Source: Nitrospirota bacterium
Lineage (GTDB): Bacteria; Nitrospirota; UBA9217
Assembly: GCA_963663225.1 (NCBI GenBank)
Contig: OY760142.1
Location: 1,728,001 to 1,792,000, forward strand
Direction: 5' to 3'
Length of the DNA stretch: 64,000 nucleotides
Notes under the pieces: generated by a model
Seen by the model: only the letters and a program-made list of their open reading frames with translations
Database searches by the model: none
Told to the model about the DNA's origin: nothing
Part shown: positions 8,546-24,161 of the stretch, one piece after another
Numbering within the stretch: the first letter of the stretch is position 1
Layout of the letters: each line of letters begins with the position of its first letter
Program-made: the position numbers and the translations under genes

Positions 8546-9838
8546 ATGAAAGAAACCTCTGTCGCAGCACGTGCAAAACGCAAGGCATATCTGAACATTG
8601 TCTTGCCGCTGTTTATCACCTCCGTCATTGCGTATCTCGACCGGGTGAACATCGGCTATGCAGCACTGACCATGAACAAGGACCTGGGGCTTACCGCTCA
8701 AATGTTCGGCATGGGAGCGGGGATATTTTTTGCCGGTTATATCCTGTTTGAAATACCCGGGGCGCTAATCGCGGAGAAATACTCGCCGAGAATCTGGCTG
8801 GCGCGCATCATGCTCACGTGGGGGCTGGTGTCCGGACTGATGGCTTTCATGGTCAATGAATGGCACTTTTATATTTTGCGGTTTCTGCTGGGCGCTGCCG
8901 AAGCAAGCTTGTATCCCGTTATCTATGCCTCGTGCATCCCGCGCTGGTTTGGCCCGAAGGATCGGGCGCGGGCAATCGCCATTCTTCTGACCTCGTTGCA
9001 GATTTCCGGTATTGTCGGAGCGCCCATGGCAGGCTGGCTGCTCGGGGTGCCCCTGTTCGGTTTCAAAGGCTGGCAGGGCTTGTTTATCATTGAGTCCGTG
9101 CCCGCGATCCTTTTTGCTTTCATAATCATCTATTGGATGGCGGACCGTCCAAGCGAAGCAAAGTGGCTGACGGCAGAAGAAAAGAAATTTCTCACGGAAC
9201 AGTATGAAAAGGAAGTTGCTGCAAAAGTCGCAGTCAGGCATTATACGGTACTGCAGGCGTTCAGAGAGCCGGAAGTGCTTAAACTTTGCCTGGCGTATTT
9301 TTTATGGATAACCGGTTTCTGGGGTTTTAATTACTGGATGCCGACCGTGCTTAAATCACTGTCCGGGTGGTCCAATCTTGCCATCGGCTGGCTCATGGCA
9401 ATTCCCATGGGAATTTCACTCCTTACCATGCTGTATATCGGCCACTCTTCGTCAAAAAAGCGTGAAAAGAGATGGCATGGCGCCATTGGAATGTTTATCG
9501 GAGCAATCGGTCTCGGAGTCGGCGTGTTTATCAAGGACCCCTGGATTGCCTTCTTTTTTGTGATTCTTGCGGGAATCGGCGTTTTCGCGCCGTTTGGCGT
9601 CTGGTGGTCCTATCCGACAACCTTTCTGTCAGGTACTGCCGCCGCCGGAGCCATTGGTCTGATAAATTCCTGCGGCAATGTCGGCGGATTCGTCGGGCCG
9701 TATGTGACCGGCTGGATCAAGCAGGCGACCGGAACGTTTACCGGCGCCTGGGTATATTTGGCCATTTCTCTTACGCTGGCGGGGCTGCTGATCCTCACGT
9801 TTAAAAAAGACCTGCCTGCCGACGGAGTGGAACCATAA
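8546..9838 (+). CDS. MFS transporter, anion:cation symporter (tartrate/phthalate permease-like)
   Basis: AYLDRVNIG, GIFFAGYILFEIP, WLARIM, AIGLINSCGNVGGF; SD AAGGAG. Confidence 0.92.
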   Translation: MKETSVAARAKRKAYLNIVLPLFITSVIAYLDRVNIGYAALTMNKDLGLTAQMFGMGAGIFFAGYILFEIPGALIAEKYSPRIWLARIMLTWGLVSGLMAFMVNEWHFYILRFLLGAAEASLYPVIYASCIPRWFGPKDRARAIAILLTSLQISGIVGAPMAGWLLGVPLFGFKGWQGLFIIESVPAILFAFIIIYWMADRPSEAKWLTAEEKKFLTEQYEKEVAAKVAVRHYTVLQAFREPEVLKLCLAYFLWITGFWGFNYWMPTVLKSLSGWSNLAIGWLMAIPMGISLLTMLYIGHSSSKKREKRWHGAIGMFIGAIGLGVGVFIKDPWIAFFFVILAGIGVFAPFGVWWSYPTTFLSGTAAAGAIGLINSCGNVGGFVGPYVTGWIKQATGTFTGAWVYLAISLTLAGLLILTFKKDLPADGVEP

Positions 9839-9959
9839 CCCTCGACGAAACTCGAGGGATGTTATGTCGCCGGTGTTGATATGCCGGCACTTCCACCGCA
9901 AGTTTTCGATGTGATGATCAAAGGTTTCAAAACGAGCGATGGTGCTGTATAATAATCAT

Positions 9960-10922
9960 ATGTATCTGCCGCTATTTTTGGGTCTTGCCGTCGGCGTGGC
10001 GTTTGGATATGTGTCGCAGCGCGGACGATTCTGAATGCTCTCGACCTGCTACGAGGTCGTGACCGGCCGTGAGCCGAACATGCTGAGAGCGTATCTGCTG
10101 GCAGTGCTCGTGCAGATGCTTGCGGTAAATGTGCTGGCGGAGTTCGGATATCTGCGGGTAGCTGTTCCGCCGTATTTCGGGTTTGCGACCATCATCGCCG
10201 GATTCATTTTCGGCATCGGGATGGTGCTTTCGGTCGGATGCGCAGGCGCCGTGTTCTACCGGGTCGGCGAAGGGAAGCTTGACTATCTTTACGTGGTGGC
10301 TGCGTTTGCCCTGTCTGCCTGGTTCAGCAACGACTGGCTGGTCGGGCCAATCCATCGGTTTTTCCACGGCACGAACACCTCCGCGACCCTCCACCATGCC
10401 TTGACAATTGATCGTCTGCTTCTTGCCGTGACTATTGCTGTGGCGCTCACTCTCTGGGTCATCAGGGGGCGCAACCACGCGGCCCAGGGAATCTGGAAGT
10501 GGCCGGCCACCGGCCTGTGCATCGGCCTGATCGGCATTGCAGCGTGGACTGTACGCGCTGCCGGCGGCAAACCGTATGGGCTTGGGACCATGCAGGGCAG
10601 CGATGGACTTGCGACGTTATTGCTTCAGTGGGACGTATCAGCGATTGACGGGAGCCTGCTGATGGTCCTGGGCATTCCTCTGGGTTCCTTCATCGCTTCC
10701 CGCACCCGCGGCAAATCACCGGGGTTGCCTCTTCATTCCAAGCGGATCATTCGTGCCATTGCAGGAGGACTTCTCATGGGAACGTCGGCCGCTGTTGCCG
10801 CCGGCGACAACATGCTTCACGGCCTGAGCGGTGTCCCGATTCTTGCGGTCAGCAGTTTTCTTTTCATGCTGTTCATGTTTCTTGGAGTATGGGCAGGGAT
10901 AAAGCTCAACTGGCTTCGTTGA
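9960..10922 (+). CDS. YeeE/YedE (TsuA-like) sulfur/selenium transporter, probable selenoprotein (U25)
   Basis: ATG 9960 gives MYLPLFLGLAVGVAFGYVSQRGRF, then TGA (10032-10034), in frame with ORF 10035..10922; the family motif is QRGRFC; also FGIGMVLSVGC. Confidence 0.85.
10042..10059 (+). promoter_or_regulatory. Candidate bacterial SECIS hairpin
   Basis: CGACCT-GCTACG-AGGTCG starting 7 nt after the in-frame TGA; loop begins with G. Confidence 0.6.
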
Positions 10923-15228: not shown

Positions 15229-15320
15229 TCCACAGAAACCTCCACTGATTTCATTTGTTTTCGGAAGCGTTCTGCCTCCCTGAAAAAGTACGATGTTTTT
15301 CCGGCATGGTCGTAATAAAG

Positions 15321-15349
15321 TTGCTAAACTAGTAAATGAATTATATGAT
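15321..15349 (+). promoter_or_regulatory. Candidate sigma70 promoter
   Basis: TTGCTA-N17-TATGAT. Confidence 0.5.
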
Positions 15350-15457
15350 ATTGTGCATGGGATTGCGCAGACCGGGCCAAAACAAAGAGGAAAATATCAG
15401 CTACAGCGTCTGACAACGTTTGCCAAAAAGGCAGTCCGGACTAAAGGGGGATTTATC

Positions 15458-15790
15458 ATGACCGAGTATTATAAAGCAGAAGATCTTGAAAAGTTTGGCG
15501 ATGTGGGAAAATACAATCCTGCACTGTTCAAAAAATTCATGGACTGGTACACGGCGTCGCTTGAGCCCGGCATGCTTACCAAACGTGAAAAGGTGCTGAT
15601 CGGCGTGGCGATTGCGCACGCTATTCAGTGCCCGTACTGCATAGACGCCTACACCAAGTCCAGCATCGAAGAAGGACTGAGTCTGGAGCATATCACGGAA
15701 GCGGTTCACGTGGCTTCAGCCATTCGGGGCGGGGCATCGCTCATTCACGCGCTTCAAGCACGGAACGCAGTTGATAGAAACTCTCTGTAG
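15458..15790 (+). CDS. AhpD/CMD-family peroxidase-like protein of arsenosugar (arsS) clusters
   Basis: ATG after AAGGGGG; LTKREK...AHAIQCPYCIDAYT...AIRGGASL; directly upstream of arsS. Confidence 0.88.
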   Translation: MTEYYKAEDLEKFGDVGKYNPALFKKFMDWYTASLEPGMLTKREKVLIGVAIAHAIQCPYCIDAYTKSSIEEGLSLEHITEAVHVASAIRGGASLIHALQARNAVDRNSL

Positions 15791-15816: not shown

Positions 15817-16770
15817 ATGAAATTCCAAGACAAAGTCATTGAAACCGGGGAAAAACCGCTGCAGGCCCTGCAAAGCAGAATATTGCAGGCAAACCTGGGC
15901 TATCGCTGCAATATGGGTTGCAAGCATTGCCATGTGTCCGGTGGACCGGCACGGCCCGAGGTGATGGACCAAAAAACCGCGGAGCAGGTCCTTCGGGTCT
16001 TTCTGGAGAATCCCTTTGAGTTGCTGGATCTCACGGGCGGCGCCCCGGAATTGAACCCGTCCTTTCGGCTGATGGTGGCTGAAGCGCGCGGGGCGGAACG
16101 GAAGGTCTTGTCCCGGACAAACCTTACGATCTTTTTTGAAAAGGGAATGGAATATCTTCCGGAGTTTTACCGGGAGCATCAGGTTGAGTTGATCGCATCG
16201 CTTCCGTATTATCTTGAGGAGAACGTTGACCGCGTGCGCGGCGCTGGCGTGTATAGGAAAAGTATTGAGTCCCTTCAGGTGCTGAACCGGCTGGGCTTCG
16301 GCATGGAATCATCGAATCTCACCATCAGTCTTGTCTATAATCCGCAGGGGATGTTTTTCGCGCCCGACCAGCAGACCCTTGAGTCGGAATTCAAGCGTGA
16401 ACTCAGGGAACGGTACGGCGTTTTCTTCACTCGGTTGTACACATTCACGAATATGCCGATCGGCAGGTTCAGGGACTATCTGATCAGAACGAATAATCTG
16501 AACGCTTACATGGAAAAACTTTCGCGCGCGTTTAATCCGGCTACCCTTGACAATGTCATGTGCAGGCATCTGGTGAATGTAGGATGGGATGGAACGTTGT
16601 ATGACTGCGACTTCAACCAGGTGCTTGGACTCGGCATGCATGCGGATTTGCCGCGGCATATTACGGGTTTTAATTACGCGAAGTTCACGGGCCGCACTAT
16701 TACCGTTGATGACCATTGCTACGGCTGCACGGCCGGGCAAGGATCGTCCTGAGTGGGCGCGGTTGCCTAG
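15817..16770 (+). CDS. arsS: Radical SAM (seleno)protein ArsS
   Basis: CNMGCKHCH, LTGGAPELNP, ASLPYY, YDCDFNQ, HCYGCTAGQGSS-TGA(16750)-VGAVA-TAG(16770). Confidence 0.88.
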
Positions 16771-16786
16771 CAGGCGGTCGCCTGCT
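16769..16786 (+). promoter_or_regulatory. Candidate bacterial SECIS hairpin
   Basis: AGCAGGC-GGTC-GCCTGCT with the loop 24 nt after the TGA; outer GGTT/AACC pairing is possible. Confidence 0.7.
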
Positions 16787-16999
16787 GAAAAACCAATCTG
16801 ATGGGTTGCTTTCACGTCGTTCCCGCATAAATTTTCAGCACAATCTTTCCTGCTTTCGGCTCCATAGCGATTAAGTATTATATTACTTGTTCGTCGCGTC
16901 GAGCTGCTCAAATTTTTCTTGGAAAAACATAAAAAATGATGTAAAATTTGAAAAACTGCATTACTGGCCAATCTGCAGTTCAGAAAAAGGGCGGTCTAC

Positions 17000-19654: not shown

Positions 19655-20704
19655 ATGCTTCAAAAAAAGCTCCATTCACTGTTTCTTCCCCGTTTTGACT
19701 GGATTCAGGTCGAGGTAACCTCGTTTTGCAATGCTTCGTGTTTTTACTGTCCGCATACGGTTTACCGCGAGCGCTGGACCAGCAGGCATATGCCTCTTGA
19801 AATGTTCAAGCGGCTCATTCCGGTTTTAAAAAAAACAAAACTTGTCTACCTCCAGGGCTGGGGCGAGCCTTTCCTGCATCCTGATTTTTTCTCCCTGGCC
19901 GCGCTGGCCAGGGAAGCCGGCTGCAGCGTGGGAACGACGACAAACGGCATGAACCTAGACAGCGCCTGGGTTGAACGGATAATCCAATCTCGGCTGGATA
20001 TTCTTGGTTTTTCTCTTGCCCATACGGATTCCCAGAATGATTTTTTAAGGCAGGGCACGCACTTGGAGCAGGTGCTCGGCCTGATCCGCAGCGTAACGGA
20101 GGCAAAACGGAAGGCCGGAACGGAAAAGCCGGTTATTCATGTCGCATATTTGCTGCTGGAATCAAACAAACGCGACGCGCGGCGCCTCCCCGGGCTGCTG
20201 AACGGCCTTGGCGTTCATGAAGTGGTGATCAGCACGCTTGACTGCGTCGCTGCTCCGGAACTCAAAAAAGAATTGGTGGAGCTTGGCACGGAAGATGAGC
20301 GCGAGCGGCTCCGTGATTATTTAAAAAGCATCTGCGCTGAGGGAGAACGCGCTGGTCTGCCGATCCACTACCAAATTGGAAATTGCGGTCGGAAGAAGCT
20401 GTACTGCAGCGAGAACATCCAAAAAGCGGCGGTCATTTCAGCCTCAGGGGATGTGTTTCCCTGCGTTTTTATGAATTTGGCGCCGGAGGAACCGAACAAC
20501 GCACATGATCAACGTTCTGCGGAGCGCGTTTGTTTTGGAAACATCGCTCAAGAGCCGCTTGAAAAAATTTGGAGAAGTGACGCATACAAAAAATTCCGCC
20601 GTTCCTTTTCCCGGGAGCGCCTTGCGCCCAGGTGCGCGCATTGTCTGAAACTGTATCTCGACAGCGGAGGTCCGTCCTCACCACAACAATCGCAGTCATT
20701 TTGA
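19655..20704 (+). CDS. Radical SAM/SPASM protein
   Basis: CNASCFYC, QGWGEP, TTTNG; C-terminal C...GDVFPC...GNI...CAHC. Confidence 0.9.
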   Translation: MLQKKLHSLFLPRFDWIQVEVTSFCNASCFYCPHTVYRERWTSRHMPLEMFKRLIPVLKKTKLVYLQGWGEPFLHPDFFSLAALAREAGCSVGTTTNGMNLDSAWVERIIQSRLDILGFSLAHTDSQNDFLRQGTHLEQVLGLIRSVTEAKRKAGTEKPVIHVAYLLLESNKRDARRLPGLLNGLGVHEVVISTLDCVAAPELKKELVELGTEDERERLRDYLKSICAEGERAGLPIHYQIGNCGRKKLYCSENIQKAAVISASGDVFPCVFMNLAPEEPNNAHDQRSAERVCFGNIAQEPLEKIWRSDAYKKFRRSFSRERLAPRCAHCLKLYLDSGGPSSPQQSQSF

Positions 20705-20812
20705 TACCGAACTGCTTTCCGCATACAGAAACAGGATGGTTGGTCTCTCTCCCGACGGAGCCGGTACGCGCGCGGGAATTTTAAAAAATACTACGACACA
20801 GGATAAACAAGC

Positions 20813-22111
20813 ATGAGACCGCGTGTTCTGCTTATCAATCCATGGATATATGACTTCGCGGCGTACAATCTCTGGTCAAGCCCGCTGGGTTTGCTGAAAG
20901 TTGCGGAATATCTGAGCCGCTGTGAGGTTGAACTTTTCCTGATCGACTGCACCGATTCATTTGGCGCGAAGCAGTACGGCACCGGAAAATACCGCACCCA
21001 GCACGTGCCGAAGCCGGATTTGCTGAAAAGCGTTCCGAGATACTACAAACGATACGGCATGGACGTTGATGAGTTCATAGCCAGGATCAAGTCCTGCCTG
21101 CCTGTGGATATGGTGCTGGTGACTTCGATCATGAGTTACTGGTACCCCGGCGTGCAGGAAACGATCAGAACCGTAAAAAAAGCCGTCCATGACGTTCCTG
21201 TCGTGCTTGGAGGCATTTATCCAACGCTCTATCCGGAGCATGCGGCGGCACATTCCGGCGCAGATCATATCTATTCCGGGCCGGCGGATGAACGCCTTTT
21301 TCCTTTTTTGCAGGAGTGCGGACTGCCACTCAGTTCTCCGCGCGATCCCCTGCCGTATTATGAGCTTGGCCTGGACGTGCAAAACCGCTTTGCTCCTCTC
21401 CAGACTTCATCCGGCTGCCCTTTTACTTGCTCCTACTGCGCCTCGCAATTCTTGTCTTCCGGTTATGAGCGAAGATCTCACGAGGATGTTTCGAAGGAGA
21501 TTTCGGCGCTCTCCGGCAGAGGAATCCGCGATTTTGCTTTTTATGATGATGCGCTGCTATATGATGCAGACAATCATATTAAACCGCTCTTAGAGATGAT
21601 TATTCAGCAGGGTTTTTCCGTCAGGCTTCATGCCCCCAATGGATTGCACGCGCGTTTTCTGGATGCAATAACGGCAGGTCTCATGATGAACAGTGGATTC
21701 AGGACCGTGCGCCTCAGTTTCGAAACATCCGATCCCGTGCGGCAGGAGCGCACCGGCAGCAAGGTTTCGACAGGGGATATTGCTCAGGCAATCGGGGTAT
21801 TACAAAAGCATGGGTTTTTCAAGGAGCAGATCGGGGTATATCTTTTATTCGGTCTACCCGGGCAGGGATTGGATGAAGTGGAGGACGGAATAGCAATTCT
21901 GCAGAAATTCAATGTGCGGATTTTTCTGTCCGAGTTTTCCCCCATCAAAGGCACGGCATGCTGGAATGAACTGGTGCAAGAGGGGACCATTCCCGATGAT
22001 CTCGATCCGCTTTATACCAACAACACAGTCTTTTCATTTCTGTATTCCGGTTATGACCATGCACGGGTAAGCCGGATAAAGCTCAGGGTGAAGGAATACA
22101 ACAAACAATAG
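20813..22111 (+). CDS. B12-binding-domain radical SAM protein
   Basis: VLLINPWIYDFAAY, VVLGGIYPTL, GCPFTCSYC, FYDD. Confidence 0.9.
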   Translation: MRPRVLLINPWIYDFAAYNLWSSPLGLLKVAEYLSRCEVELFLIDCTDSFGAKQYGTGKYRTQHVPKPDLLKSVPRYYKRYGMDVDEFIARIKSCLPVDMVLVTSIMSYWYPGVQETIRTVKKAVHDVPVVLGGIYPTLYPEHAAAHSGADHIYSGPADERLFPFLQECGLPLSSPRDPLPYYELGLDVQNRFAPLQTSSGCPFTCSYCASQFLSSGYERRSHEDVSKEISALSGRGIRDFAFYDDALLYDADNHIKPLLEMIIQQGFSVRLHAPNGLHARFLDAITAGLMMNSGFRTVRLSFETSDPVRQERTGSKVSTGDIAQAIGVLQKHGFFKEQIGVYLLFGLPGQGLDEVEDGIAILQKFNVRIFLSEFSPIKGTACWNELVQEGTIPDDLDPLYTNNTVFSFLYSGYDHARVSRIKLRVKEYNKQ

Positions 22112-22185
22112 GCAGCCAGCAGCAGAAAGAGTGCTGTTGCCGGGAATCGATGCCGCCGATTGTGAAATATGCGGTGCCGATGGGA

Positions 22186-23052
22186 CTATTTCCCATCCCA
22201 CCCCGCGAGGCGCGCCATCATGACCCAGAATGCCTTTGCTTTCAGTTTGCAGACATACGCCATGGAAGCGTCGCCGCCTTGAACGCTCCCGTCCGAATGT
22301 CCGCAGGAGGCCGGAATATCGGCGCAATCCGCGGGATGGGCAGCGCACCATTTCGGGCACCAGCTGCATTCGCCGTTTATTCCTCCGGACCCGGAATAGT
22401 ATTTCCCATTCGGATCGTAGGATTCGATGTCGGCAAAATCAAAAAGTACTTTTCCGTTTTTTCTGGCATACTCCCGGATACGGTCGTTGTTTCTGCTGAG
22501 CGTGGCGCTCCCTCCGTCCACGTGTCCGGTCATATAGATGAAGCGCATATGCTTGAACTCCGATTCCAGCTGGTTCATCTTTTTCAGATAGGTATTGACG
22601 AAATCCGCGTTTGAAGACGACATCTCTCCGCACCATGAGTACATCGAAAAATTGAATTCGCCCATCCGGGAGGCGCGTCTGGTTCTTTCCATCCCGGATT
22701 CAGTGCTCCAATAGGATTCCGGTCCCAGGCTTTCTCGATAGATGCGGAGAACGGGCGGGTTTTCTTTCGGCGGCAGTCCGGGGGCCGAGGAGAACATGAC
22801 TGCAACGCGGTAATTCGGATTTGCTTTTCCGAGCGTTTCAAGGCCGGTGATGATTTGCTTGCCGTGTGACAGGTGTATATAGTAAAGAGTCGATTCTCTG
22901 GCCTTGTCGAGATACTTTTTCGGGATTCGGTCGAACGCCGCCACCGACGTGTGGTCGATGATAAGCGCCTCAGGCAGTACGCGGTCTTCGCATGTTCCGT
23001 TGGAAACCGCCAGAATAAGAAAAAGTATTGCTGCGGCTGCTGTCCTTGTCAT
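22186..23052 (-). CDS. Exported hypothetical protein with Cys-rich C-terminus
   Basis: Signal peptide from ATG 23052; HLSHG, FIYMTGH, LFDFADIES, ARLAGW look like conserved blocks. Confidence 0.75.
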   Translation of the reverse strand: MTRTAAAAILFLILAVSNGTCEDRVLPEALIIDHTSVAAFDRIPKKYLDKARESTLYYIHLSHGKQIITGLETLGKANPNYRVAVMFSSAPGLPPKENPPVLRIYRESLGPESYWSTESGMERTRRASRMGEFNFSMYSWCGEMSSSNADFVNTYLKKMNQLESEFKHMRFIYMTGHVDGGSATLSRNNDRIREYARKNGKVLFDFADIESYDPNGKYYSGSGGINGECSWCPKWCAAHPADCADIPASCGHSDGSVQGGDASMAYVCKLKAKAFWVMMARLAGWDGK

Positions 23053-23235
23053 GTCGCATGCCCGCCTTTCTTCTCCGGAGTGTGCTGATAAGGAATGCAA
23101 TTTTATAATAGCACAACCCGTGGTTCTTGAATAGAGCATTGCAGATTTCGTGAATGATTTTTGCCCTGTTTCGGTTGTGTGTGCATCCAGCAAGATCGCC
23201 TGCGGACTGCGACTTGAACCCGCGGTTTTTTGTCT

Positions 23236-23263
23236 TTGACATTTGAAGGATATGCAGTATACT
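23236..23263 (+). promoter_or_regulatory. Candidate sigma70 promoter
   Basis: TTGACA-N16-TATACT. Confidence 0.6.
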
Positions 23264-23285
23264 TCGCCGACGCGAGGGCTCTCCT

Positions 23286-24161
23286 ATGCCGGAATACATC
23301 GGTACCGTCATCAGGCCTCCGAGCGAGGCCGACAGTCTGGTTCTTCAGTACACCATCGGGTGTTCCCACAACCGCTGCGTTTTCTGCCCTGCCTATAAAC
23401 AGAAACAGTTCCGTGTACGGAGCATTCGTGAAATGGAAACAGACATTGAGTCCTGCTTGCCTTCCTGCCGCGATGCGCGCAGGATTTTCCTGGCTGACGG
23501 TGATGCGCTCGCGGCTCCCCAGGAGGAGTTGCTTGCGCTGTTTGCTCTTTTGCACGCTCGTTTCCCCCGGCTATCACGCATCAGCATGTACGCAAACGCA
23601 GGGAGTGTCCTCGGCAAAAGCGTAGCAGAACTCGCACAACTCCGTGAACAAGGCCTGGGCATTCTCTATCTGGGCGTTGAATCCGGAGACGACAATGTGC
23701 TCGACTGGATGCAAAAAGGGGTAACGTCCGACGAAATGCTGGAGGCAGGCAGACGCGTGAAGGAATCGGGAATAAAGTTGTCGGTCACGGTTTTGCTCGG
23801 CATCGGTGGAAGCACCTGGAGCAAACAGCACGCACAGGCAACCGGAAGACTGCTTTCAAAACTAAAGCCGGACCACGTTGGAGCTCTTACCACCATGGTG
23901 GTTCCCGACACGCCGCTCCACCTGTTGAAGGAGGCAGGTGATTTCAGCCTTCCCGATCCATTCTCTCTCTTGCTTGAACTTGCCGAAATGATCGAGCACA
24001 CGGAAATGCGGGGGCTTTTCTTTGCGAATCATGCATCGAACTACCTGCCGCTGAGGGTCCGCATGCCGGTGCAGCGCACCGCGGCGGTCGCGATGATCAG
24101 GCAGTGCGTGCACCATGCGGATGAATCCCTCTTAAAACCGGAATGGCTGAGAGGGTTGTGA
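23286..24161 (+). CDS. Radical SAM protein
   Basis: RPPSEA, GCSHNRCVFC, FLADGD, YLGVESG, NHASNY. Confidence 0.92.
   Translation: MPEYIGTVIRPPSEADSLVLQYTIGCSHNRCVFCPAYKQKQFRVRSIREMETDIESCLPSCRDARRIFLADGDALAAPQEELLALFALLHARFPRLSRISMYANAGSVLGKSVAELAQLREQGLGILYLGVESGDDNVLDWMQKGVTSDEMLEAGRRVKESGIKLSVTVLLGIGGSTWSKQHAQATGRLLSKLKPDHVGALTTMVVPDTPLHLLKEAGDFSLPDPFSLLLELAEMIEHTEMRGLFFANHASNYLPLRVRMPVQRTAAVAMIRQCVHHADESLLKPEWLRGL

What the first reader, a model, noticed from the sequence alone, without database searches (positions are those of the whole stretch)
9960..10922. Hidden selenoprotein: YeeE/TsuA-family transporter with Sec at the first conserved Cys and Asp at the third
Seen: the ORF track starts at 10035, but an in-frame ATG at 9960 encodes a full first TM helix ending QRGRF-TGA-M. 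A perfect 6-bp hairpin with a G-initiated loop follows 7 nt later. Known: YeeE/TsuA thiosulfate transporters have three conserved Cys, the first in an R..FC motif (C22/C91/C293 in the crystallised protein, from recall). Here the TGA is codon 25 and the second Cys is residue 94, the same 69-residue spacing. The third site reads AGDN instead of xGCN. Inference: a 320-aa integral-membrane selenoprotein with a U/C/D relay, suggesting altered substrate or chemistry (for example selenium oxyanions). No YeeD/TusA partner is adjacent. I cannot tell whether this subfamily is already catalogued.
Basis: partly seen in the sequence, partly recalled or inferred. Interest (0 to 1): 0.85.

Follow-up and report, generated by a model that had tools for sequence, protein, structure and literature searches.

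The report
Hidden selenocysteine in YeeE-type membrane protein
A membrane transporter-like gene that databases cut short at an apparent stop codon is really a full-length protein with the rare amino acid selenocysteine lining its central passage, a form of this family that current selenoprotein lists do not include.

Summary
The gene runs from ATG 9960 to TGA 10920-10922 (320 residues). The in-frame TGA at 10032-10034 (codon 25) is best read as selenocysteine.

Evidence:
- All 13 related genome loci, from four phyla, keep TGA at this column.
- The 17 codons before it evolve as coding sequence.
- Full-length relatives carry Cys there.
- Two hairpins just downstream show compensatory changes at wobble positions.
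- The window holds a second UGA gene (ArsS) with a GGUC-loop hairpin.
- TGA is otherwise the commonest stop, so the code is not reassigned.

Aligned to the solved thiosulfate transporter YeeE (6LEO), Sec25 = C22 (cytoplasmic mouth), Cys94 = C91 (centre) and Asp283 = C293 (outer thiosulfate site). The clade has also lost two YeeD-contact residues and has no TusA/YeeD neighbour. It is therefore a YeeE-fold protein but fails the tests for a TsuA thiosulfate transporter.

The one catalogued YeeE/YedE selenoprotein is a half-size protein with Sec in a different loop. This is a new variant of a known kind.

Substrate and chemistry are inferred only. The Sec machinery genes could not be checked in a 64-kb window.

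The parts
9926..9953 (+). Promoter-like site: -35 TTCAAA (9926-9931), 16-nt spacer, -10 TATAAT (9948-9953). The -10 box ends 6 nt before ATG 9960, so the mRNA may be leaderless.
   Evidence: 10 of 12 matches; 1 site found against 0.7 expected in shuffles. A TATAAT or TAGAAT box ends 6-7 nt before the predicted start in 9 of 14 sequences. Consensus match only; the transcription start is not mapped.
9960..10922 (+). Full coding sequence of the YeeE-family selenoprotein: 320 residues plus stop TGA 10920-10922.
   Evidence: Pfam PF04143 covers residues 21-312 = profile 1-310/310 at 181 bits. The AlphaFold2 model has pLDDT 88.8 and TM 0.90 to 6LEO.
9966..10025 (+). Residues 3-22: first transmembrane helix (H1), lost in the 295-aa annotation.
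   Evidence: Helix 3-22 in the model. It aligns with residues 3-19 of 6LEO. G8, G12 and G16 are invariant in 32 sequences. In the 17 codons before the TGA there are 87 synonymous and 38 nonsynonymous codon differences, and all 17 third positions vary.
10032..10034 (+). UGA codon 25, read as selenocysteine; equivalent to C22 of S. thermophila YeeE (cytoplasmic mouth, LA loop).
   Evidence: TGA in 13 of 13 related loci. Cys in this column in 18 of 18 non-TGA sequences of alignment A3. Alignment to 6LEO.
10042..10059 (+). Candidate SECIS element.
   Evidence: The pair of alignment columns 18-33 (two wobble positions) is GC 9, CG 3, AU 1, GU 1. Helix 1 is 92.3% paired over 13 distinct sequences.
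10064..10076 (+). Hairpin 2: stem 10064-10067 / 10073-10076, loop CGUGA 10068-10072. Second candidate SECIS element; it overlaps codons T35-G36-R37-E38-P39.
   Evidence: 100% paired. The pair of columns 39-51 (two wobble positions) is CG 12, UA 2. T35, G36 and P39 are specific to this clade.
10239..10241 (+). Cys94 (TGC), equivalent to the central C91 of YeeE.
   Evidence: Invariant in 32 of 32 sequences. Alignment to 6LEO.
10806..10808 (+). Asp283 (GAC), in place of the periplasmic thiosulfate-contacting C293 of YeeE.
   Evidence: D in 17 of 17 clade members against C in 15 of 15 outgroup homologues. Alignment to 6LEO. Role of C293 from passages of PMC7449682.

Best explanation
The gene at 9960-10922 encodes a 320-residue YeeE-fold membrane protein. 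UGA codon 25 is decoded as selenocysteine with the help of one or both conserved hairpins lying 7-45 nt downstream. That much is shown by comparative evidence.

In the YeeE architecture three re-entrant loops place three residues in a line through the narrow centre of the protein. Here they are Asp283 (outer side), Cys94 (centre) and Sec25 (cytoplasmic mouth). This is shown by alignment and by a predicted structure.

The mechanism is inferred. The protein conducts a small sulfur- or selenium-containing species. Sec25 acts as a strong nucleophile at the exit, paired with Cys94. The two equivalent Cys residues form a disulfide in the YeeE crystal, so the pair here could cycle through a selenenylsulfide. 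In this way Sec25 would take over the acceptor role that the Cys of the TusA-like partner YeeD plays in the thiosulfate system. The clade has lost two YeeD-contact residues and has no such neighbour. Replacement of the outer Cys by Asp, and relaxation of the outer Arg, point to a different way of capturing substrate than in thiosulfate uptake.

The confidence given is for the selenoprotein identity and the site mapping. I rate the mechanistic part at about 0.3.
For: 1. TGA is at the same column in 13 of 13 loci, from Nitrospirota, Thermodesulfobacteriota/delta-proteobacteria, Methylomirabilota and Chloroflexota.
2. The frame before the TGA is coding: 87 synonymous against 38 nonsynonymous codon differences. 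All 17 third positions vary, against 10 first and 7 second positions.
3. The Pfam domain starts at residue 21, upstream of the TGA.
4. Cys occupies the column in full-length relatives P0028, P0055 and P0060 and in 15 of 15 more distant homologues.
5. The Met after the TGA is a family residue (RGRFCM in Cys forms), not a start codon. L009 has ATA there.
6. Two hairpins show compensatory wobble changes. 95.1% of cells pair, 0 of 500 shuffles reach this, and slid controls give 25-44%.
7. The window's ArsS gene has an in-frame TGA 16750-16752. Read through, it completes TIGR04167 to 303/303 (419 against 410 bits) and is followed by an 8-bp hairpin with a GGUC loop.
8. TGA ends 22 of 54 called ORFs, so the code is not reassigned.
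9. Of 78 database proteins of this clade, 64 start exactly at the Met after the TGA. Only 3 carry the N-terminus, and all 3 have Cys.
10. Fold: pLDDT 88.8; TM 0.90 and rmsd 2.2 A to 6LEO.
11. Roles of C22/C91/C293 and the C22-C91 disulfide come from passages of PMC7449682. C22 at the YeeD C17 interface, and contact residues R28, R98, E101 and E261, come from passages of PMC11073785.
12. In the clade, the R28 position is Y or F in 17 of 17 sequences, the E261 position is not E in 17 of 17, and the R215 position is R in only 4 of 17. In the outgroup these are R in 14 of 15, E in 15 of 15 and R in 13 of 15.
13. No TusA, rhodanese or DsrE domain occurs in 0 of 73 neighbouring ORFs of the 13 loci.
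Against: - No selA, selB, selC or selD was seen. Only 64 kb is available, and neither the window nor the 13 loci hold a tRNA-Sec.
- Neither hairpin has the GGUC loop of the window's ArsS element. Their loops lie about 10 nt nearer to and about 10 nt further from the UGA than in ArsS. In 9 of 14 sequences hairpin 1 can close to a 4-nt loop without G. Which one binds SelB is therefore open.
- Part of the hairpin conservation is forced by conserved amino acids.
- There are only 14 DNA sequences, three of them close relatives.
- The single-sequence fold is only z -2.1.
- For the mechanism: no conserved gene neighbourhood gives a functional hint. S. thermophila C22A still complemented growth, so the position is not always essential. 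A protonated Asp could still hydrogen-bond an oxyanion, so loss of thiosulfate transport is not shown.
- No protein-level evidence of Se exists.
Confidence: 0.9

Rival explanations
1. The TGA is a true stop. The functional product is the 295-aa protein from ATG 10035, possibly together with a separate 24-residue peptide from 9960-10034 (a split gene).
For: This is how gene callers read it. The table-11 ORF is 10035-10922, and 64 of 78 database entries of the clade start at this Met. ATG follows the TGA in 13 of 14 sequences.
Against: - The 295-aa form lacks transmembrane helix H1 and the LA loop of a fold in which they are integral.
- The Met is conserved in uninterrupted Cys forms (RGRFCM).
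- L009 has ATA after the TGA, and its next Met is 15 codons on.
- No Shine-Dalgarno-like sequence precedes 10035 (by eye).
- The promoter-like site lies before 9960.
- Hairpins with compensatory changes follow the TGA.
- Cys aligns with the TGA.
Confidence: 0.04
2. The TGA is a nonsense mutation or a sequencing error in a decaying gene.
For: A single in-frame stop in one sequence cannot by itself be told from a mutation.
Against: TGA is at the same column in 13 of 13 independent assemblies from four phyla, with both flanks under purifying selection. No other frame disruption is present.
Confidence: 0.01
3. The selenoprotein is real, but it moves a soft metal or metalloid (Hg, As, Cu, Ag) rather than a sulfur or selenium compound. 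The Asp-Cys-Sec line would serve as a ligand relay.
For: [quoted passage not shown] An acidic outer residue suits a cation better than an anion. Arsenosugar genes (ArsS and its peroxidase-like partner) lie 4.4 kb downstream in the window.
Against: - None of the 73 neighbouring ORFs matched a family whose name marks metal or arsenic resistance (judged by family name).
- The ArsS linkage was not looked for in the 13 loci.
- The family's only characterised members transport thiosulfate.
- The cytoplasmic YRxGEG motif is kept.
Confidence: 0.15
4. The selenoprotein is a dedicated selenium (selenite or selenide) transporter.
For: The related YedE branch of the family is linked by genome context to selenium metabolism (passages of PMC5322559). 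No specific prokaryotic Se uptake system is known (passage of PMC13188914).
Against: - The protein scores far below the YedE/FdhT model cut-offs (79.7 against 350 bits; 33.8 against 200).
- No selD, YedF or Sec-lyase neighbour was seen in 73 ORFs; the one AIR-synthase-like neighbour is PurM.
- An importer that itself needs selenium to be made has a bootstrapping problem (inference).
Confidence: 0.1

Closest known systems
YeeE/TsuA thiosulfate transporter of Spirochaeta thermophila and E. coli (PDB 6LEO, 6LEP, 8J4C, 8K1R)
   Same: Same fold over the whole length: phmmer E 1.7e-28 for residues 6-312, and predicted-structure TM 0.90. Same re-entrant loop positions. The central Cys and the cytoplasmic YRxGEG motif (R98, E101) are kept.
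   Different: - The cytoplasmic Cys (C22) is Sec and the outer thiosulfate-contacting Cys (C293) is Asp.
- The outer Arg (R215) is relaxed.
- The YeeD-contact residues R28 and E261 are replaced.
- No YeeD/TsuB gene is adjacent or fused.
- The protein is below both NCBIfam TsuA cut-offs.
- A periplasmic loop is about 10-16 residues shorter.
Catalogued 'YeeE/YedE family' selenoprotein (representative WP_012471001.1; motif GUxSG)
   Same: Same Pfam family, PF04143. It is also a predicted membrane selenoprotein listed without experimental proof (review table; sequence in the deep-Sep supplement).
   Different: That protein is a half-size, single-repeat form of about 170-180 residues. Its Sec lies in a ...DGUPSGHGLSG loop, which by eye matches the G(C/D)NxxHGLSG loop where the window protein has Asp283. 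The window protein is full-size, with Sec in the RGRF-U-M loop of the first repeat. The comparison is by eye only; that sequence was not put through a tool.
YedE/FdhT selenium-metabolism membrane protein (NF033796, TIGR04112)
   Same: A distant member of the same superfamily, and linked to selenium.
   Different: Scores of 79.7 and 33.8 bits against cut-offs of 350 and 200, over partial matches only. No YedF, SelD or Sec-lyase context. As described in the passages read, YedE is linked to selenium by gene context, with conserved Cys residues. Whether YedE ever carries Sec was not checked.
Other predicted Sec-containing transport proteins (mercuric transport protein, SO_0444 Cu/Zn efflux transporter, SaoP and others)
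   Same: Membrane or transport proteins in which Sec replaces a Cys that is thought to contact the substrate (passage of PMC13188914).
   Different: Listed under other domain identifiers than PF04143 in the review's table. None has a solved homologue that places the Sec in a three-residue line through the membrane (the second point is from my own knowledge and was not checked here).

Membership tests
Pfam PF04143 Sulf_transp (YeeE/YedE family) | Match to the family profile above the gathering score | tested here: met
   181 bits against a cut-off of 27. Residues 21-312 cover profile positions 1-310 of 310.
Pfam PF04143 Sulf_transp (YeeE/YedE family) | Hourglass fold of two repeats with four re-entrant loops (as in 6LEO) | tested here: met
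   AlphaFold2 model with pLDDT 88.8. TM 0.90 and rmsd 2.2 A to 6LEO, and the next fold scores TM 0.23. This is a prediction, not a solved structure.
TsuA/YeeE thiosulfate transporter (functional family) | Score above NCBIfam's curated cut-off for TsuA | tested here: not met
   NF052577 scores 158.8 against 400 bits. NF041049 scores 117.7 against 645 bits.
TsuA/YeeE thiosulfate transporter (functional family) | Three conserved Cys (C22, C91, C293 in S. thermophila), essential in E. coli YeeE | tested here: not met
   The sites are Sec25, Cys94 and Asp283. The first is a chemical analogue of Cys. The third is Asp in 17 of 17 clade members. Essentiality is from passages of PMC7449682.
TsuA/YeeE thiosulfate transporter (functional family) | Conserved Arg in the positively charged outer indentation (R215) | tested here: not met
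   Lys204 in the window. Arg in 4 of 17 clade members against 13 of 15 outgroup homologues.
TsuA/YeeE thiosulfate transporter (functional family) | TusA-like partner YeeD/TsuB encoded next to it or fused, with conserved contact residues | tested here: not met
   None in the window's flanks. 0 of 73 neighbouring ORFs in 13 loci. The R28 and E261 positions are replaced in 17 of 17 members. A partner encoded elsewhere in the genome cannot be excluded.
TsuA/YeeE thiosulfate transporter (functional family) | Thiosulfate uptake activity | not testable with these tools
   Needs a complementation or uptake assay.
Bacterial selenoprotein gene | In-frame UGA aligned with Cys in homologues, with conserved coding sequence on both sides | tested here: met
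Bacterial selenoprotein gene | Conserved stem-loop (SECIS) shortly downstream of the UGA | tested here: met
   Two hairpins within 45 nt, with compensatory changes. Which of them binds SelB is unknown. No Rfam family matched.
Bacterial selenoprotein gene | Exposed G (GU) in the apical loop at a fixed distance from the UGA (criteria recalled from the E. coli fdhF and bSECISearch literature) | tested here: inconclusive
   The hairpin 1 loop is GCUACG in the window, but it can close to a 4-nt loop without G in 9 of 14 sequences. The hairpin 2 loop is C-G-U/G-G-A/C. Their distances from the UGA differ from the window's ArsS element.
Bacterial selenoprotein gene | Genome encodes selA, selB, selC (tRNA-Sec) and selD | not testable with these tools
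   Only 64 kb is available, and it holds no tRNA-Sec. Indirect support comes from the ArsS gene with UGA and a GGUC-loop hairpin in the same window.
Bacterial selenoprotein gene | Selenium in the protein (75Se labelling or mass spectrometry) | not testable with these tools
   Experimental.
Catalogued YeeE/YedE selenoprotein (WP_012471001.1 type) | Sec in the G-U-x-S-G motif of a half-size protein | tested here: not met
   In the window the Sec lies in R-F-U-M, the protein has 320 residues in two repeats, and the matching loop reads G-D-N-M-L. The comparison is by eye.
YedE/FdhT selenium-metabolism membrane protein | Score above the curated cut-offs of NF033796 and TIGR04112 | tested here: not met
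   79.7 against 350 bits, and 33.8 against 200 bits.

The most novel reading that the evidence does not exclude
The Sec25-Cys94 pair is a catalytic selenenylsulfide centre built into the conduction path. The protein would then be a transporter-enzyme that chemically captures or cleaves its substrate as it leaves the pore, for example thiosulfate, a polysulfide or a selenium species. This would be a form of group translocation that needs no TusA-type acceptor. A bolder version is that this is the dedicated prokaryotic selenium channel that has not yet been identified.
Probability: 0.2. Interest if true: 0.8.

Novelty: new variant of a known kind. Interest (0 to 1): 0.6.

Why it matters
1. Annotation. 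In the database sample examined, 75 of 78 proteins of this clade lack the first transmembrane helix, and 64 of them start exactly at the Met after the UGA. The clade occurs in at least four phyla. Structural or functional inference from those entries is therefore wrong.

2. A useful test case. A solved homologue places this Sec precisely, at the cytoplasmic mouth of a three-residue line across the membrane and next to a Cys with which it could bond. That makes it an unusually well-defined case for asking what Sec does in a transporter.

3. The clade as a natural experiment on the YeeE mechanism. The outer Cys is changed to Asp, the inner Cys is upgraded to Sec, and the partner-docking residues are lost.

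4. Cataloguing. The latest inventory I could read counts forms with different Sec positions as distinct subfamilies. By that convention this adds one to the prokaryotic selenoproteome.

Tried and rejected
- Rfam, whole window at gathering scores and 9940-10140 at E up to 10: only a tRNA and three chance-level matches. There is no SECIS family to lean on.
- tRNA-Sec search in the window (one tRNA-Leu) and in the 13 loci (three ordinary tRNAs in L010): none found, which says little for such short stretches.
- Conserved gene neighbourhood (73 of the 88 ORFs listed were scanned; I left out 15, namely ORFs farthest from the match and antisense ORFs overlapping it): nothing is shared across phyla. 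Only lineage-level synteny appears: an MFS transporter and aminotransferase in the close Nitrospiraceae relatives, and UPF0182 in three Chloroflexota.
- An AIR-synthase-like neighbour in L003 looked like a possible SelD but is PurM.
- Other TGA-terminated radical-SAM ORFs in the window (ends at 20704 and 24161), read through: no convincing Sec extension.
- The primary papers cited for the known YeeE selenoprotein, PMC2398784 and PMC5029168: no YeeE, YedE or transporter wording for it in the main texts. Their supplements were not opened.
- I first assumed the catalogued GUxSG motif was the second Cys site. The sequence in the deep-Sep supplement showed it is a half-size protein with Sec in the other loop type, so I dropped that reading.
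- PMC12013261 (Haft and Tolstoy 2025) is not held, and Deng et al. 2026 was not looked up. Either could list this form.
- DNA for the Cys-bearing relatives (P0028/P0274, P0055, P0060) was not obtainable. All 13 genome loci were TGA forms. Whether the hairpins decay when Sec is replaced by Cys therefore stayed unchecked.
Full report
**What is in the sequence**

- The plus strand carries ATG at 9960 and an in-frame TGA at 10032-10034 (codon 25). ATG follows at 10035 and the terminal TGA is at 10920-10922.
- A table-11 ORF list starts the gene at 10035, giving 295 aa.
- Read through, the product has 320 residues. Pfam PF04143 (Sulf_transp) matches residues 21-312 over profile positions 1-310 of 310, at 181 bits. 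The family domain therefore begins upstream of the TGA.
It starts 7 nt after the TGA.
- Cys94 is TGC 10239-10241. Asp283 is GAC 10806-10808.

**Is the TGA a conserved, decoded codon?**

A scan of one genome per species returned 13 loci encoding relatives at 51-97% identity. They come from Nitrospiraceae, delta-proteobacteria/Syntrophales, Methylomirabilota (NC10) and Chloroflexota.

- All 13 of 13 have TGA at the same column, after a conserved ...FGYVSQRGRF.
- In the 17 codons before the TGA, comparison with the window gives 87 synonymous and 38 nonsynonymous codon differences. All 17 third positions vary, against 10 first and 7 second positions. This is the signature of a translated region.
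- In L009 the codon after the TGA is ATA, so no start codon is available there.
- The Met after the TGA is also present in uninterrupted relatives (RGRFCM), so it is a family residue and not a start.
- Of the best 120 of 564 protein hits, 78 belong to this clade, defined by Asp at the third site. 64 of the 78 start exactly at that Met, and 11 are otherwise N-terminally short. Only 3 (P0028, P0055, P0060) carry the N-terminus, and all 3 have Cys at the column.
- All 39 hits with Cys at the third site are full length, with Cys at all three sites.
- In the 50%-identity library, the clade's only two full-size representatives both begin at query residue 26.
- TGA ends 22 of 54 called ORFs in the window (TAA 20, TAG 12). 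The code is not reassigned.

**RNA structure**

I aligned 60 nt around the TGA from 14 sequences. RNAalifold predicts two hairpins: window 10043-10058 and 10064-10076.

- In hairpin 1, the pair formed by two wobble positions is GC in 9, CG in 3, AU in 1 and GU in 1.
- In hairpin 2, a wobble-wobble pair is CG in 12 and UA in 2.
- For the structure I named, 95.1% of cells pair, against 25-44% when partners are slid by 1-3 columns. 0 of 500 shuffles reach the observed pairing or covariation score, and 4 pairs have changes on both sides.
- Caveats: there are only 13 distinct sequences, some closely related, and conserved amino acids fix part of the sequence.
- The hairpin 1 loop begins with G in the window, but the hairpin can close to a G-less tetraloop in 9 of 14 sequences.
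- The hairpin 2 loop is C-G-U/G-G-A/C. It overlaps the clade-specific T-G-R-x-P motif.
- I cannot tell which hairpin binds SelB.

**Does the organism decode Sec?**

The four machinery genes cannot be checked in 64 kb, and no tRNA-Sec lies in the window or the loci. However, the window holds ArsS, the arsenosugar radical-SAM (seleno)protein, at 15817-16767.

- ArsS has an in-frame TGA at 16750-16752, in ...GSS-U-VGAVA.
- Reading through completes TIGR04167 to positions 4-303 of 303, and the score rises from 410.3 to 419.3 bits.
- An 8-bp hairpin with a GGUC loop follows at 16768-16787. From memory, that is the loop of the classical E. coli fdhF element.

**Structure and sites**

- phmmer aligns residues 6-312 to residues 3-322 of S. 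thermophila YeeE (6LEO, E 1.7e-28). This gives U25=C22, C94=C91, D283=C293, K204=R215, Y31=R28, R101=R98, E104=E101 and K252=E261.
- An AlphaFold2 model built from a 32-sequence alignment has pLDDT 88.8. Helix 3-22 is followed by the short loop that holds residue 25. The model matches 6LEO at TM 0.90 and rmsd 2.2 A.
- From passages of Tanaka et al. 2020: the three Cys residues lie in a line about 7 A apart. C293 contacts thiosulfate on the periplasmic side and C22 is on the cytoplasmic side. C22 and C91 formed a disulfide in the crystal. All three are essential in E. coli YeeE, but S. thermophila C22A still complemented.
- From passages of Ikei et al. 2024: C22 sits at the interface with Cys17 of the TusA-like partner YeeD. 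R28, R98, E101 and E261 make the contacts.

| Position (S. thermophila numbering) | This clade (17 sequences) | Outgroup (15 sequences) |
|---|---|---|
| C293 | Asp in 17 | Cys in 15 |
| R28 | Tyr or Phe in 17 | Arg in 14 |
| E261 | never Glu | Glu in 15 |
| R215 | Arg in 4 | Arg in 13 |
| R98 | kept in 17 | kept in 15 |
| E101 | kept in 17 | kept in 14 |

**Context and evolution**

- In the window the gene has its own promoter-like site: TTCAAA, 16 nt, TATAAT. The -10 box ends 6 nt before ATG 9960.
- A TATAAT or TAGAAT box lies 6-7 nt before the predicted start in 9 of 14 sequences, across three phyla. This suggests a leaderless mRNA and supports 9960 as the start.
- The neighbours are an MFS transporter upstream and two PLP-enzyme/MocR-type genes on the other strand.
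- None of 73 neighbouring ORFs in the 13 loci has a TusA, rhodanese or DsrE domain, and nothing is conserved across phyla.
- A quick maximum-likelihood tree used 31 of the 32 rows of alignment A3 plus P0274, which replaced the partial P0028 of the same cluster. It separates the Asp clade from the three-Cys homologues with 100% SH-aLRT and nests the Cys forms at two places among Sec forms. This fits Sec being old in the clade, with at least two later replacements by Cys.
- That order of events rests on the outgroup root and a short search, and was not tested further. The tree also mixes phyla, suggesting transfer.

**What it most likely does**

- Shown: it is a full-length YeeE-fold protein with Sec at the cytoplasmic mouth, Cys at the centre and Asp at the outer site.
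- Inferred: Sec25 with Cys94 forms a reactive pair at the exit of the pathway and may take over the acceptor role of YeeD. The outer capture site works differently from that of thiosulfate transporters.
- The substrate is unknown. I rank sulfur or selenium species first, and soft metals or metalloids second.

**Comparison with what is known**

- The protein is a member of PF04143. It fails NCBIfam's TsuA and YedE/FdhT cut-offs and fails three defining features of TsuA.
- A 2026 review compiles 119 prokaryotic selenoprotein families or subfamilies and counts different Sec positions as distinct subfamilies. It lists one YeeE/YedE entry, motif GUxSG, WP_012471001.1 (table and passages). A 2022 review lists the same accession.
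- The sequence printed in the deep-Sep supplement shows a protein of about 170-180 residues with Sec in ...DGUPSGHGLSG. That is the other loop type in a half-size protein.
- Full-text searches for YeeE with selenoprotein, YeeE with selenocysteine, YedE with selenoprotein, and Sulf_transp with selenocysteine found 4, 4, 14 and 1 papers. Going by their titles, and by the passages I read from three of them, none describes Sec at the first site.
- Supplements of most papers, Haft and Tolstoy 2025 (not held) and Deng et al. 2026 were not seen, so prior listing cannot be excluded.

**Verdict**

This is a real, conserved and systematically mis-annotated selenoprotein. It is a new variant within a family already known to contain one. 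The mechanism is plausible but unproven.

Noticed in passing
window 15817-16787: ArsS, the arsenosugar radical-SAM (seleno)protein, is also cut short by table 11. In-frame TGA 16750-16752 is followed by five more codons and TAG, then an 8-bp hairpin with a GGUC loop (16768-16787). Its peroxidase-like partner lies at 15293-15790. It is a known selenoprotein family, and it indicates that the organism decodes Sec.
   Followed up: yes
window 9926-9959; L002, L004, L008, L009, L010, L011, L012 just upstream of the predicted starts: A TATAAT or TAGAAT box ends 6-7 nt before the start codon in 9 of 14 sequences, from Nitrospirota, a delta-proteobacterium and Chloroflexota. L010-L012 also have a perfect TTGACA at the -35 distance. 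This suggests that this selenoprotein mRNA is leaderless in several phyla.
   Followed up: partly
proteins P0258 (with P0275-P0277) and P0268: These are short YeeE-like proteins of 91-97 residues, on contigs of up to 2,913 bp (P0258 cluster) and 11,921 bp (P0268). P0258 and P0268, whose sequences I read, end one residue before the second conserved Cys (...GG or ...LG, then stop). They may be a further, separate Sec form with UGA at the central Cys. No DNA was available to check.
   Followed up: no
protein P0160: A 366-residue family member has Asp, Gly and Asp at the three Cys positions (GRFD......GSGAAG......LGDD...). It is a Cys-free variant of the fold.
   Followed up: no
window 10062-10076 (codons 35-39): The clade-specific protein motif T-G-R-x-P is encoded exactly by hairpin 2. 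Protein and RNA constraints are therefore entangled. The motif is also kept in the three Cys forms.
   Followed up: partly
window 19655-24161: A run of radical-SAM genes lies just downstream of ArsS: a SPASM-type maturase-like gene and two B12-binding or related radical-SAM genes. Their TGA stops, read through at 20704 and 24161, gave no convincing Sec tails.
   Followed up: partly
window 9839-9858: A 7-bp GC-rich hairpin lies directly after the stop of the upstream MFS transporter gene (8546-9838), without a clear T-run. It may separate the two transcription units.
   Followed up: no
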